The translations under genes were made by a program, and so were the position numbers. Below are positions 642 to 15,314 of a stretch of 64,000 nucleotides of DNA, piece after piece. Under the pieces are notes generated by a model. It had not been told where the DNA came from. It worked only from the letters and a program-made list of their open reading frames with translations, and did no database searches. The DNA comes from Lytechinus pictus (lineage: Eukaryota): NCBI RefSeq assembly GCF_037042905.1, contig NC_087245.1:21640001-21704000 (forward strand). Direction: 5' to 3'. The stretch's first letter is position 1. Every line of letters starts with the position of its first letter.

Positions 642-777
642 GTTAAAGCTCGCCATGTGGACTCAGTGTTTGAGTTGCTTAAAGAGCTCGATGTCGTAAG
701 TACGAGAATGGAGGCGGAGGAAAGGTGTTTCTTTTACTCTGGAATAGAAGCACTTGATTTAGCTCTCAATGAAAAGG
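642..777 (+). CDS. Mfn-like exon: end of GTPase domain (RCFFYS, equivalent to RIFFVS)
   Basis: tttcag| acceptor, G|gtaaat donor, phase 0->1; VKARHVDSVFELLKELDVVSTRMEAEERCFFYSGIEALDLALNEK. Confidence 0.8.
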
Positions 778-12700: not shown

Positions 12701-15314
12701 AACGGAGAATTAGTCCAACTGTTGTTAGACCATGTGGACAAAATAACCCGAATTTTTCCACGGGCTCTACTGCTGTTCTATTATTAGCTTCTCTAAAGGT
12801 AAATTGCAATTTAGTCTAACCCCGATTTGATTAATAGCCGTTTAGCCTCACCCTATATTTCGTCTTCAAACCAGTTTACCTTTTGGTCTAAATGTCATTT
12901 TGCCTATTTACCATTCCGTCTAGTTTCCATTTGGTCTAATTTCTATTTGGTCTGATATCTAGCTACTCGGTCTTACAACACTTGGTCAATTCCTGTAACA
13001 GACTGGAATATTTATTTGGGATTTAGACGAAAAGGCGAATAGATCATTTAATTCGACCGTTCTGCAATTATACCGACTAATAATATTCGAACAAGTCCTA
13101 TATATTTGACCAAGTGGAAGTTAGACCAAACTGTTACTAGAGCAAATGGGTTTAGCTCGTATGGTGTACGATCAGAGAGTTTGACCAACTGCTATACTGC
13201 TAGACCAAGTGGATATATCCTACAAAAAACTAATGATAAAATAATAATAACTATACACAAATATACACACACGCACACACATACATTACACACCAGACTG
13301 GTGGTTCTAGGTTTCTTTTTGCCAACACAAGACCGGCACGTGCAGCACAAATTGTCGCGAGGCGACAATTGTGCAGGGGTAACAATTTGAGATGCAACCC
13401 CCTCCCTATTGCGATAAATGTTACACCAAAAATGAGATTTTCATAATTCTTTCACTCTTTTATGCAGTGGAAACAGACGCTGAACGCAACGTCCTAATCC
13501 GCAGCATGGCTGCTACTACGGGGGTTTTCTTCATGCATGTTCGGCGGTGGATAAGGGCTTCCATTGAGCAGAAACTACAGAAGCTTACTGCTTTACAGAA
13601 AGATTCTTTGATCTGTCCTCATGTGAGACAAAGATGTCACGAACTAGTAGAAGAGTGAGTAAATTTGGCACACCATCACTCGAAATTAACAGCCAGTTCA
13701 ACGCTATGGATCAACTTCGTTTTGCTCACAGTACTTCGTCTAAGTTTTATGTATTATAAACATCTCGTCTGATATCTACTTTTGTTAAACTAAATTTCGC
13801 GAAATATAATGATGTTCACTTTCGATTTGTCTAAGACGAGCTATAATAGCAATCGATCGAGGATGCCTATTTTAGTGATTATAAGTATTCTAGCATTTAA
13901 ACCAACTATTAGCTAGGCAAAGTGATTGGACCAAAATATGGCCTACATCTTATCTGGACTTTGGTTGTACACCAAGCGTGCAAAATAATGCTGTTATTTT
14001 GATTAGGTGAATTGTCAGTTTTATTCTTCTATGTCGTGAAATTTGGTTCTATTCAAATTCAACTTTTGCTAAATTGTTTTGTAATGTTATCATATTGATT
14101 GAGTGATAATTAGCACCTTTTTCTAGATTTCCTAGTTCATCAAATGAGTAAAATGGAATAGAAAATGAATATGTTGGGCCTATGTGCTATAGAATCCTTT
14201 ACTACACTCTAAAAACACTGAGTAAAATTTTACCCAAATTGGGTAGAAAGGGAACATGCATGTTTGCTGGGTATTTCAAAGCAACATTGCGTAAAATTTA
14301 CAACATATTAGGTATCTTTCTACCCAACCAACATGCATGTTCCCATTTTACCCAATATTGGGTAAACCTTTTTTTAGAGTGTATGTTAAATAAAAAATGA
14401 AAAATTTGTACCAAATGAAATCCTGAGCGAAATTCAACCCTGAGAAACCACGACCTATAATATTTTTGCAGATTCTGTGATAACACTGATGAATATTACA
14501 AGGAGACATGCGTTCATGAAATACGTGACAGTCTTCAGATACGGAGAGAGAAGTTTGAAGAGATACATTCTACAATGATGAAACATTCCGAAAGTTTCTC
14601 CAAACTCAAGTAAGTTGCTACAAGCCTTCACTCATAGACCTTAAGTTTAGAGACCTAAAATTATCAACCAAAGTGTAAATGGCCCGTATTCTGATGTTGG
14701 GTTTAACTTAGACGATAGTCACTGTCTAACTCTGAGCTTAAATTATAGGGAGCCAAAAATTAAAAAATTATGTTTATGTTAGAAATATCTTATGTTAATT
14801 ATTTTGTTTCCTTTTGCTGTCATAATGAAGAAAGATACCTCAGTTATCATTCCCAGACATTTATGAACAATTTGAGTGTCATATGAGTTAATAAACTGAA
14901 TGTGTACTGTAAGGGATTTGTGCTCCAATTGGCTCTCCATAGTTAAACCACAACCTTAAACCTGGGTTTTATTTACACTCGGGTTCAGAATACGGGCCAT
15001 TGTCATGTTTATGTGCATTTAGTTCATCGATATTATTGATGATTGATAGTGATTAGGGTCGATATAACTCTGGAACTGTCAGATTTTTTTTAAAATAATA
15101 TTTTATTTGTCAGAATATCCTACCAGTTGCTGATCACACGCCCTTGTGTTTCTGGCGCATCCAATGACAATTGAAAAATGTAACCCGGGCACTAATAGTT
15201 AACAGATGGGTTTGTATTTTGCTTTAAAATTAATCATTTAAGCACTATTTTTTTCCTTACAGGATTGAGGCAGATCAGATGCAGAGATGTCCGGGAATGT
15301 CAATAATTGATTAG
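642..15314 (+). CDS. Mfn-like: Multi-exon divergent mitofusin/Marf/Fzo-like dynamin-family GTPase (end of GTPase domain, HR1, HR2). 5' part lies upstream of the window; possibly a disrupted allele or young pseudogene
   Basis: AG/GT-bounded exons that join in phase: 642-777, 1268-1290/1320, 1865-1986, 4134-4260, 5395-5499, 6671-6761, 7358-7470, 7567-7979 (MITE-interrupted), 13468-13654, 14472-14609, 15263-15314 (TAG). VKARHVDSVFELLKELDVVSTRMEAEERCFFYSGIEAL aligns by eye with MFN2 [59 protein letters not shown] aligns with HR2 ASEKLQLV..CSHQVQQ..HLCQQVD. Confidence 0.75.
1268..1320 (+). CDS. Mfn-like small exon (ends in TAA if spliced at 1320; alternative donor at 1290)
   Basis: tttatttcag| acceptor; DVTCSLAEVNDIEKCWK*, phase 1->0; donors gtttgt (1321) or gtaaat (1291). 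Confidence 0.5.
1865..1986 (+). CDS. Mfn-like exon (start of HR1 region)
   Basis: ttggttcag| acceptor, AT|gtgagt donor, 122 nt, phase 0->2; ERATTAGITAKLSMNRENCQEVLEQCIECLSLLEGNVLSK. Confidence 0.8.
2350..3991 (+). mobile_element. Helentron-associated (HINE/DINE-1/Tsp-like) element, family 1
   Basis: Starts in a T-run; 5' subTIR gtctcgcctgc with adjacent short palindrome; core tandem repeats (ggtcacatgaccaaggtc...); 3' subTIR gcaagctagac. Homologous to 30640-32708. Confidence 0.75.
2425..3102. mobile_element. PIF/Harbinger-like MITE nested in HINE
   Basis: TIR A(A/G)GCCCCCTCACACCT(G/A)ACCGAAT; TTA duplication at 2422-2424 and 3103-3105; interrupts the HINE sequence caaatcttaacct seen intact in the 30640 copy. 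Confidence 0.85.
4134..4260 (+). CDS. Mfn-like exon (coiled coil HR1)
   Basis: gatgcag| acceptor, |gtaagt donor, 127 nt, phase 2->0; MSDLSMEVEALTIELQSYNEKMDEFMQESEELRDNALKTIDES. Confidence 0.85.
4292..4801. mobile_element. Kolobok-like MITE (TTAA TSD)
   Basis: TTAA|aggtcaagtccacccca ... tggggtggacttgtcct|TTAA; homologous to 17749-18336. Confidence 0.8.
5395..5499 (+). CDS. Mfn-like exon
   Basis: gtgtag| acceptor, CAG|gtgagg donor, 105 nt, phase 0->0; IFRCMTEVSEKMSQTLKRNSDSEEFEEDNVHQYAQ. Confidence 0.8.
5650..5836 (+). mobile_element. CR1/L2-type LINE reverse transcriptase fragment
   Basis: WIKSYFSNRYQF...CGIPQGSNLGPLLFILCINDI (GxPQGSxLGPLLF RT motif); truncated by the next element. Confidence 0.85.
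5837..6480. mobile_element. hAT-like non-autonomous element fragment
   Basis: CAGTGGCGTAGC terminus and repeated gcgagcgcgaagcgcgagc motifs, shared in inverted form with about 9170-10093 and 61400-63870. Confidence 0.6.
6671..6761 (+). CDS. Mfn-like exon
   Basis: Polypyrimidine tract plus gaag| acceptor, G|gtgaag donor, phase 0->1; NAILLWYRRILNEFHRATNHVCDGYSSYVR. Confidence 0.7.
6890..7146 (-). mobile_element. tRNA-derived SINE
   Basis: Minus strand reads gccgTGGCCGTGTGGTC (A box) ... GGTTTGATCCC (B box), then a cccgtgagcaaggcattt SINE core motif; 3' boundary approximate. Confidence 0.75.
7358..7470 (+). CDS. Mfn-like exon
   Basis: gatag| (weak) acceptor, CCG|gtaaat donor, phase 1->0; AHLVTQCYFVESRNFSLGLEFDPSLNMYNESICYPDHP resembles Mfn RQCFSLNYDLNCDKLC. 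Confidence 0.55.
7567..7979 (+). CDS. Mfn-like exon interrupted by a 296-bp MITE
   Basis: Removing MITE 7573-7868 and one TA copy restores aaacag|GAT ATA CTT TCC... = DILSRQPTEFLNNYVVWNPLRPEQENASCPYGNVRNRF, 115 nt, phase 0->1, donor G|gtaaac. These are exactly the phases the flanking exons require. Confidence 0.6.
7573..7868. mobile_element. TA-flanked CACTG...CAGTG MITE inserted in the Mfn-like exon
   Basis: TA|cactgtta...taacagtg|TA; inverted copy at 19787-20099. Confidence 0.85.
8342..10487. mobile_element. hAT-like non-autonomous element, 2146 bp, with nested repeats
   Basis: TIR CAGGGCCGTAGC(T/C)AGA; perfect 8-bp TSD cctctgca at 8334-8341 and 10488-10495. Confidence 0.9.
8452..8610. 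repeat. (GAAA)n / (GA)n microsatellite
   Basis: Directly visible tandem GAAA run. Confidence 0.95.
11901..12068. mobile_element. Harbinger-like palindromic MITE (CWG flanks)
   Basis: ctg|gtgggtgtttcatgaaagttg ... caactttcatgaaacggatct|cag. Confidence 0.75.
12471..13399. mobile_element. TIR MITE with nested tagacca-repeat elements
   Basis: caaattgtcacccttgcacaatttgtcgcc / ggcgacaattgtgcaggggtaacaatttg inverted ends; internal ttagacca / tggtctaa arrays. Confidence 0.7.
13468..13654 (+). CDS. Mfn-like exon (start of HR2 region)
   Basis: ctcttttatgcag| acceptor, GA|gtgagt donor, phase 1->2; [62 protein letters not shown]. Confidence 0.85.
14205..14381. mobile_element. TA-flanked foldback MITE
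   Basis: TA|cactctaaaaa...tttttagagtg|TA; near-complete palindrome. Confidence 0.8.
14472..14609 (+). CDS. Mfn-like exon (HR2 coiled coil)
   Basis: tttttgcag| acceptor, AA|gtaagt donor, phase 2->2; EFCDNTDEYYKETCVHEIRDSLQIRREKFEEIHSTMMKHSESFSKL. Confidence 0.85.
14681..14998. mobile_element. MITE, GGCCCGTATTCTGA TIR, AAT/ATT flanks
   Basis: TIRs visible; second copy at 55487-55793. Confidence 0.85.
15263..15314 (+). CDS. Mfn-like terminal coding exon
   Basis: tttttttccttacag| acceptor, phase 2; KIEADQMQRCPGMSIID*. Confidence 0.75.

What the first reader, a model, noticed from the sequence alone, without database searches (positions are those of the whole stretch)
642..15314. Divergent mitofusin-like paralog with no recognisable transmembrane hairpin (possible soluble 'mini-mitofusin')
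Seen: eleven phase-compatible exons encode about 400 aa covering the end of the Mfn GTPase domain, HR1 and an HR2-like tail. Recalled knowledge, to be verified: exon lengths 122/127/105 nt and the intron phase series match human MFN2 (junctions after c.816, 970, 1038, 1160, 1287, 1392, 1495, 1716, 2069, 2204), except at the TM-region junction, which is phase 1 here. Where MFN2 has its TM hairpin, this protein is shorter and mostly polar; its best stretch, [17 protein letters not shown], is only weakly hydrophobic. Inference: a lineage-specific, fast-evolving, possibly non-mitochondrial dynamin-like GTPase, which could act as a regulator of fusion or in immunity.
Basis: partly seen in the sequence, partly recalled or inferred. 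Interest (0 to 1): 0.8.

Follow-up and report, generated by a model that had tools for sequence, protein, structure and literature searches.

The report
Sea-urchin mitofusin copies without membrane anchor
Sea urchins keep a small family of extra, intact copies of the mitochondrial fusion protein mitofusin that appear to have lost the membrane anchor and changed key catalytic residues, so they probably do a different job and may be naturally soluble, full-length mitofusins.

Summary
Ten window exons (six more lie upstream) encode a 707-aa protein identical to a RefSeq 'transmembrane GTPase fzo-like' record of Lytechinus pictus. A spliced RNA contig joins 10924-11127 straight to 13468, and no hidden TM exon was found. 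The genome holds a normal TM-bearing mitofusin elsewhere, plus two more intact anchor-less paralogs. Relatives occur in Lytechinus, Strongylocentrotus and Diadema as one clade. The TM zone is about 55 aa shorter and polar, and Pfam Fzo_mitofusin is not detected. The predicted fold matches mini-MFN1 (Z 36). New here: three basic residues at the GTPase dimer face (MFN2 R104, H128, R259) are replaced by G, D and Q, yet the G core is under strong purifying selection (dN 0.08, dS 1.28) while the stalk evolves fast. Best reading: a soluble or peripheral, GTP-binding mitofusin offshoot with a re-wired dimer face, not a canonical fusogen. Localisation, activity and any immune role are untested. No paper on it was found in ten searches.

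The parts
642..777 (+). Coding exon 7 of 16 (136 nt, phase 0 to 1): end of the G domain, aa 300-345
   Evidence: canonical counterpart 154 nt, same phases
1348..1412 (+). Exon 8 (65 nt): G domain to HB1 hinge
   Evidence: 65 nt in all three paralogs and the canonical gene
1865..1986 (+). Exon 9 (122 nt): HB1 helix
   Evidence: canonical 122 nt
4134..4260 (+). Exon 10 (127 nt): long stalk helix (HR1 region)
   Evidence: canonical 127 nt
5395..5499 (+). Exon 11 (105 nt): HB2
   Evidence: canonical 105 nt
6671..6761 (+). Exon 12 (91 nt, phase 0 to 1): HB2
   Evidence: 91 nt in all three paralogs, canonical 103 nt
7890..7979 (+).
   Evidence: absent from P0001 and P0002, no family tblastn hit, 2 genomic look-alikes; the RNA contig edge fits a join from 6761, not from 7979 (2-letter evidence only)
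10924..11127 (+).
   Evidence: spliced RNA contig, run X10 record 12; low model confidence at aa 536-574
13468..13654 (+). Exon 14 (187 nt, phase 1 to 2): aa 583-645; acidic residues where TM1 ends, degenerate TM2 inside one long helix (aa 586-630)
14472..14609 (+). Exon 15 (138 nt, phase 2 to 2): HR2-like helix
   Evidence: canonical 135 nt
15263..15314 (+). Last coding exon with TAG stop; C-terminal helix that completes HB1
15315..15731 (+). 3' untranslated region, at least to 15604 on the spliced contig; AATAAA/ATTAAA-type hexamer at 15443
   Evidence: (X10 records 12 and 13)

Best explanation
One of three intact members of an echinoid family of mitofusin-derived dynamin-like GTPases that have given up the permanent transmembrane anchor. 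Shown: mitofusin ancestry, full G domain plus both helical bundles, a 55-aa shorter and polar TM zone, splicing in RNA, purifying selection on the G core, and replacement of three basic dimer-face residues (MFN2 R104, H128, R259 become G85, D109, Q287). Inferred: the protein is cytosolic or a peripheral membrane protein; it still binds GTP/Mg (P-loop K90/T91, switch-I T111, D227xxG230 and W288-D289 are kept); it cannot form the canonical Glu-Arg dimer that drives hydrolysis, so it is a slow GTPase or uses a family-specific dimer face (new conserved K233/C234/R235 and D109). Most likely it docks reversibly on membranes through the basic, weakly amphipathic stalk tip (aa about 553-625), as bacterial BDLP and IniA do with a paddle or loop, and tethers or shapes membranes independently of the canonical mitofusin. 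Confidence is about 0.85 for the anchor-less paralog family and about 0.45 for this mechanism.
For: Ancestry. Canonical gene elsewhere with TM exons. TM loss: best 19-residue Kyte-Doolittle mean in the C-terminal zone 0.83-1.32 in 10 family rows against a median of 1.65 in 51 other rows; 0.99 here against 1.64 for the genome's canonical protein; longest uncharged run 9-15 against 14-51. Pfam Fzo_mitofusin hits 0 of 7 family proteins but scores 205 bits on the Diadema canonical protein and 97 on Drosophila Fzo. No TM-profile hit in six frames of 6762-13467 (best E 0.44), while both control exons were found. Spliced contig joins 11127 to 13468; a second run's 1133-nt contig encodes the same continuous TM-less stretch (P0014). 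Motifs: switch-I His is Asp in 11 of 14 family rows; G4 Arg is Gln in 12 of 15; P-loop Arg absent in 14 of 14. MFN1 H107A and R238A block dimerisation and hydrolysis (passages of PMC9568670; bioRxiv 10.1101/2025.10.08.681278; PMC6820788). Selection: G core dN 0.082, dS 1.28 between paralogs 1 and 2; 98.5-100% identity to the L. variegatus ortholog. BDLP and IniA lack a permanent TM and insert a paddle or loop (passage of PMC12578975).
Against: The TM call rests on hydropathy scales that I recalled and an ad hoc free-energy sum; DeepTMHMM was not available. The measure overlaps: 5 of 51 other rows score 1.14 or less (two choanoflagellate proteins among them), and one Diadema member (P0006) reaches 1.32 with an Ala-rich 13-residue uncharged run. 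Mitochondrial outer-membrane anchors are often under-predicted (passage of PMC5800796). The C-terminal halves align only weakly (hhalign E 0.0018, probability 15%), so the residue register in the TM zone is uncertain. The model is unreliable at aa 536-574 and only moderate at 575-630, and its alignment contained canonical mitofusins. Hydrophobic moments of the tip are modest (0.42 at most). The third paralog keeps the switch-I His. No evidence on localisation, lipid binding or tissue.
Confidence: 0.45

Rival explanations
1. Soluble decoy that regulates fusion: it binds the G domain or helical bundles of the canonical mitofusin, forms a half-site dimer (its Glu236 can pair with the partner's Arg, but its Gln287 cannot pair back) and stalls or tunes mitochondrial fusion.
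For: Glu236, Trp288 and the HB1 fold are kept. Some mitofusin point variants act as dominant negatives by engaging wild-type protein (passages of PMC9568670).
Against: H107A weakens the dimer rather than trapping it. The G core is only 33-53% identical to the canonical protein but 86-93% identical between paralogs 1 and 2, which fits self-recognition better than mimicry of an almost unchanged partner. Three old paralogs with fast stalks are more than a decoy needs (inference).
Confidence: 0.18
2. Membrane-independent defence GTPase, converging on an Mx- or GBP-like role: a conserved G core drives assembly while a fast-changing stalk recognises foreign targets.
For: Repeated duplication (3 genes in this genome, two of them about 70 kb apart; several in Diadema), stalk dN 0.41 against 0.08 in the G core, and 11 differences between two records of the same gene. 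Mx proteins act without membranes and vary in copy number, while mitofusin is mostly single-copy (passages of PMC11789081).
Against: No expression data after immune challenge; no test of positive selection was possible (dS saturated between paralogs, no ortholog DNA). Orthologs within Lytechinus are 89-94% identical, and copy number is small.
Confidence: 0.17
3. Still a mitochondrial outer-membrane protein with a weak Ala-rich anchor, specialised for one tissue such as testis, like Drosophila Fzo.
For: A TM2 remnant is alignable; P0006 overlaps the canonical hydropathy range; flanking amphipathic helices aid targeting in MFN1 (passages of PMC5699052); Fzo is a precedent for a fast germ-line paralog (passages of PMC11012351); low depth in two raw-read runs is compatible with narrow expression.
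Against: Fzo keeps the Fzo_mitofusin domain, the switch-I His and the G4 Arg; this family lacks them. The remnant carries Arg and His in its middle and acidic residues where TM1 ends; paralog 3 has no uncharged run over 9 residues in that zone.
Confidence: 0.15
4. A decaying duplicate without function.
For: Low RNA depth; loss of catalytic and anchor features.
Against: Three intact 16-exon open frames, orthologs in three genera, dN/dS about 0.06 in the G core, spliced RNA.
Confidence: 0.03

Closest known systems
Animal mitofusins (MFN1, MFN2, Marf; the urchin's own canonical gene at G000:C2 about 5.741-5.767 Mb)
   Same: G domain and HB1 fold (Z 36.1, rmsd 2.1 A over 368 aa to 5gnt); intron phases; P-loop Lys/Thr, switch Thr, G3, G4 Trp-Asp
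   Different: About 20% overall identity; TM zone 55 aa shorter and polar; one intron fewer; no Fzo_mitofusin hit; dimer-face Arg, His and Arg replaced; insertion of about 45 aa after switch I
Drosophila Fzo (testis paralog of Marf)
   Same: Lineage-specific, fast-evolving mitofusin duplicate beside a canonical gene
   Different: Fzo keeps the TM zone, the Pfam domain, the switch-I His and the G4 Arg; it is an independent duplication
Bacterial dynamin-like proteins BDLP and IniA
   Same: Mitofusin-type G domain and two bundles with no permanent TM; fold matches at Z about 20
   Different: This gene descends from an intron-rich animal mitofusin, so the anchor-less state is a reversal; no paddle was resolved in the model
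Divergent echinoderm mitofusin-like proteins (Asterias P0019/P0161, Amphiura P0024; automatic annotations only)
   Same: Also lack the switch-I His, the P-loop Arg and the Pfam Fzo hit; group with this family in two trees
   Different: They keep a long hydrophobic segment (42-51 uncharged residues); the grouping may be long-branch attraction
Trypanosome MfnL
   Same: A mitofusin-like dynamin with a non-canonical role (passage of PMC11885689)
   Different: Inner-membrane protein of a distant lineage; not compared by sequence here

Membership tests
Dynamin superfamily | Dynamin-type G domain with G1-G4 motifs | tested here: met
   PF00350 66.6 bits over cut-off 27; motifs aligned
Dynamin superfamily | Long helical stalk after the G domain | tested here: met
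   AlphaFold2 model, helices 351-470, 476-521, 586-630, 633-699; mean pLDDT 79.5
Mitofusin lineage (ancestry) | Mitofusin-type G domain and HB1 completed by the C-terminal helix | tested here: met
Mitofusin lineage (ancestry) | Shared exon-intron architecture | tested here: met
   14 of 15 intron phases; 8 of 15 in identical alignment columns with the same phase
Canonical mitofusin (fusogen) | Pfam Fzo_mitofusin (PF04799) C-terminal region | tested here: not met
   0 of 7 family proteins; controls 205 and 97 bits; only the C2 gene scores in the genome
Canonical mitofusin (fusogen) | Transmembrane anchor between HB2 and HR2 | tested here: not met
   hydropathy, uncharged-run, intron scan and RNA join; by simple scales only, one Diadema member borderline
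Canonical mitofusin (fusogen) | Switch-I His and G4 Arg for the trans G-G dimer and hydrolysis | tested here: not met
   D109 and Q287; role
Canonical mitofusin (fusogen) | Outer-membrane localisation and fusion activity | not testable with these tools
   needs cell work
BDLP/IniA-like reversible membrane binders (works like) | Lipid-inserting paddle or loop at the stalk tip | tested here: inconclusive
   tip is basic with modest hydrophobic moment; pLDDT under 50 at aa 536-574
Mx / dynamin-related proteins | Dynamin middle and GED domains | tested here: not met
   no such Pfam hit at E up to 1; fold far closer to MFN (Z 36) than to MxA (Z 17)

The most novel reading that the evidence does not exclude
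An animal mitofusin lineage has reverted to a soluble, BDLP-like state with its own re-wired GTPase dimer face and has been kept as a multi-gene family since before Diadema and Lytechinus split, serving a non-mitochondrial role such as innate defence: a new soluble branch of animal dynamins and a natural full-length mitofusin for structure work.
Probability: 0.3. Interest if true: 0.82.

Novelty: new variant of a known kind. Interest (0 to 1): 0.62.

Why it matters
Animal mitofusins are treated as mostly single-copy, anchored fusogens, with duplications noted only in vertebrates and Drosophila in a recent survey (passages of PMC11789081, which never mention echinoderms). An old family without anchor and with a changed catalytic face would widen what this fold can do. 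Every mitofusin structure matched here is a truncated construct, and full-length Fzo1 is reported insoluble; a naturally soluble full-length relative could show how HB2 and HR2 pack. It also bears on the one-TM against two-TM topology debate: here the HR2 helix must lie on the same side as the G domain, and the model uses it to complete HB1. Lytechinus is a tractable laboratory urchin (my knowledge), so knock-out and localisation are feasible.

Tried and rejected
1) Exon 7890-7979: rejected; it would stay in frame as a cassette exon, and the read lay did not cover it, so a minor isoform is not excluded. 2) My first hidden-exon scan missed the true exon because its acceptor fell under my pyrimidine threshold; the protein records revealed it. 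3) Hidden TM exon in 6762-13467: none. 4) First fold from the 8-row family alignment was poor (pLDDT 62); replaced by a 68-row alignment. 5) Two-copy complex of aa 8-400 with GDP and Mg: no verdict, score 0.00, alignment not used; no evidence either way. 6) ESM Atlas on aa 440-707: top hits unnamed bacterial clusters at 0.91-0.92 and a Fzo-bearing cluster at 0.88, leads only. 7) Sequencing-run search listed no holder on record as RNA; raw runs X11 and X12, about 6% read, gave almost no exon depth, so no tissue or level can be stated. 8) First 68-row tree did not finish; 34 rows were dropped for (unnamed, partial or very divergent rows, among them family fragments P0011 and P0013), and 19 and 17 rows were kept. 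9) Origin from the urchin canonical gene: AU test rejects it (p 0.016), but long branches pull on that test, so the time of duplication is unresolved. 10) Ortholog dN/dS could not be computed (no L. variegatus DNA). 11) Ten paper searches and three look-ups of earlier scan notes found nothing on this family. Cao et al. 2017 was not held and is known here only through citing passages. No supplements were read; urchin expression tables or Table S1 of PMC5800796 may list these genes.
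Full report
Observation. I rebuilt the exon chain from the window. A search with exon 13468-13654 returned a 707-aa protein on this very contig, labelled 'transmembrane GTPase fzo-like [Lytechinus pictus]', and a 91% identical L. variegatus protein. Mapping it back gave 16 coding exons, six upstream of the window and ten inside; all 15 introns are GT-AG and the model translates exactly to the record. 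It appears to have used 7890-7979 and missed 10924-11127. The first is absent from both records, has no hit from 7 tblastn queries and has two look-alikes elsewhere in the genome. The second is conserved in all 6 family queries.

RNA. One 964-nt contig of run X10 (kind not on record, but spliced) joins the 204-nt exon to 13468-13654, 14472-14609 and 15263-15604. Its left edge extends two letters into the acceptor, which fits a join from 6761 and not from 7979; this is thin evidence. Run X1 holds 13467-13644. Two raw-read runs, about 6% read, showed almost no exon depth. A 200-aa product from a 1133-nt contig of another run shows the same continuous TM-less stretch.

Identity. The protein hits Dynamin_N (66.6 bits) but not Fzo_mitofusin. 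Its best solved relatives are MFN2 and MFN1 constructs (E 3e-36 to 5e-33), then BDLP (E 9e-6). A family profile matches a canonical profile over 419 columns (E 4e-55). An AlphaFold2 model from 68 rows, canonical mitofusins included (pLDDT 79.5, pTM 0.71), aligns to mini-MFN1 at Z 36.1, rmsd 2.1 A over 368 residues, reaching the C-terminal helix; BDLP and IniA score about 20.

Paralogs. The only Fzo_mitofusin match in the genome lies on contig C2; it gives a 743-aa, 17-exon canonical mitofusin with its hydrophobic segments. Two further genes, about 70 kb downstream of this one and at 42.45-42.50 Mb on C1, give intact 729- and 710-aa models with the same 16-exon phase series. Against the canonical gene 14 of 15 phases agree, and exons of 109, 65, 122, 127 and 105 nt are equal in length. 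The canonical 221+138+197 nt become 204+187 nt, 55 codons fewer. In the alignment the odd phase-1 junction falls in the column of the canonical intron that precedes the 197-nt exon, which suggests loss of the intron before it and a one-base shift; loss of the whole 138-nt exon is the alternative, as the C-terminal halves align weakly (E 0.0018).

Range and age. Word searches found 8 and 11 proteins among 8000 scored candidates each, all from Lytechinus, Strongylocentrotus or Diadema. The full HMMER search of 50% representatives gave full-length or very high scores only to such proteins; I could name 20 of its 150 listed hits. The 11 family rows form one clade (100/100) on a long stem; the paralog-3 lineage splits before Diadema separates from Lytechinus, so at least two anchor-less genes predate that split (over about 200 million years, recalled). 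The clade joins divergent, TM-bearing proteins of a sea star and a brittle star (97/91 and 99/98), flagged as meeting long branches; an AU test rejects a sister position to the urchin canonical gene (p 0.016) under the same caveat. The duplication may thus be echinoderm-wide with anchor loss in echinoids, but this is unresolved.

Anchor. In the C-terminal zone the best 19-residue hydropathy is 0.83-1.32 in 10 family rows and 0.91-2.42 (median 1.65) in 51 other rows; rows are related, so the rank-test p of 3e-6 overstates it. This protein scores 0.99, the canonical 1.64. The overlap is real: 5 of 51 other rows score 1.14 or less and Diadema P0006 reaches 1.32. A TM-zone profile found both canonical control exons and nothing in six frames of 6762-13467. 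The scales were recalled and no dedicated TM predictor was available.

Catalytic face. By the MFN2 alignment (numbering anchored on N107, T111 and T129 in passages of PMC6820788), R104, H128 and R259 correspond to G85, D109 and Q287. In the family the His is Asp in 11 of 14 rows, His in 2, Gln in 1; the G4 Arg is Gln in 12 of 15, His in 2, Lys in 1; the P-loop Arg is absent in 14 of 14 (some S. purpuratus rows may be pieces of one gene). Among 55 other rows, 39 show the G-x-G-H-T motif and 46 the [NT][RK]WD motif, with partial proteins among the misses. Passages state that MFN1 R238A is catalytically dead and cannot dimerise, that H107A binds but does not hydrolyse GTP and does not dimerise, and that the Glu-Arg pairs are central to the G interface. 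Nucleotide-binding residues are kept. The changed core is conserved: 86-93% identity between paralogs 1 and 2 with dN 0.082 and dS 1.28, against 32-52% identity elsewhere; 69-78% against Diadema. Overall identity to Diadema is 44-46% against 88% for the canonical gene. These are fixed changes, not decay.

How it most likely works. Shown: ancestry, fold, anchor loss by simple measures, splicing, selection. Inferred: cytosolic or peripheral location, GTP binding, slow or re-wired hydrolysis, reversible membrane contact through the basic stalk tip (net charge +3 to +4 in 18-residue windows over aa 549-582 and 593-626), as BDLP and IniA do without a permanent TM. I give this 0.45; decoy of the canonical mitofusin 0.18; membrane-independent defence GTPase 0.17; weakly anchored tissue-specific fusogen 0.15; decay 0.03. 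No call tested localisation, activity or expression pattern.

Comparison with what is known. By descent it is a mitofusin; by defining features of the fusogen (TM anchor, Fzo domain, His and Arg) it fails three tests. Drosophila Fzo keeps these features. The genes carry automatic names only. Ten full-text searches showed no paper on them; the library lacks most subscription journals. I saw passages only, never whole texts or supplements, of PMC12578975, PMC11885689, bioRxiv 10.1101/2025.10.08.681278, PMC9568670, PMC5699052, PMC5800796, PMC6820788, PMC5147005, PMC11789081 and PMC11012351.

Verdict. Observation partly confirmed, core interpretation upheld and extended: a new variant of a known kind, interest 0.62.

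Noticed in passing
G000:C1:21724023-21748900 (L013-L015): Second intact anchor-less paralog, 16 exons, 729 aa, 58% identical to the window gene, same strand, about 70 kb downstream; ortholog of L. variegatus P0004.
   Followed up: yes
G000:C1:42453177-42504000 (L016-L021): Third intact paralog, 710 aa, 33.5% identical; keeps the switch-I His but not the G4 Arg; ortholog of P0009.
   Followed up: yes
P0019, P0161, P0162 (Asterias) and P0024 (Amphiura): Sea star and brittle star also carry strongly diverged mitofusin-like proteins with altered switch I but a long hydrophobic segment; one annotated Asterias isoform (551 aa) ends inside that segment.
   Followed up: partly
P0060 (Dreissena), P0064, P0071, P0076, P0143: Other divergent mitofusin-like proteins outside echinoderms, with changed P-loop, switch-I or G4 motifs; hidden mitofusin paralogs may be more widespread in invertebrates.
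   Followed up: no
P0001 against P0003: Two record versions of this same gene differ at 11 of 707 residues, only one of them in the G core; may reflect high allelic diversity.
   Followed up: partly
upstream exon at G000:C1:21634255-21634552: Exon 3 is 298 nt against 163 in the canonical gene: an insertion of about 45 aa after switch I, variable in the family and largely disordered in the model (aa 124-146).
   Followed up: partly
P0001, whole protein: Acidic (net -32 against -12) and Cys-rich (20 against 10) compared with the canonical protein; C234 in switch II is invariant in the family.
   Followed up: no
window 5652-5969 and 61535-62050 (+): Fragments of non-LTR reverse transcriptase (PF00078), the first inside intron 11.
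   Followed up: partly
window 8452-8610; 3103-3760; 30699-31369; 34390-35018: An (AAAG)n tract and 157-265 bp tandem repeat families; dispersed repeats in introns 12-15 draw most of the RNA depth in the read lay.
   Followed up: no
window 15800-64000: No Pfam-recognisable gene in the long ORFs scanned here (20 ORFs scanned in all, 2 reverse-transcriptase hits); short-exon genes were not looked for.
   Followed up: partly
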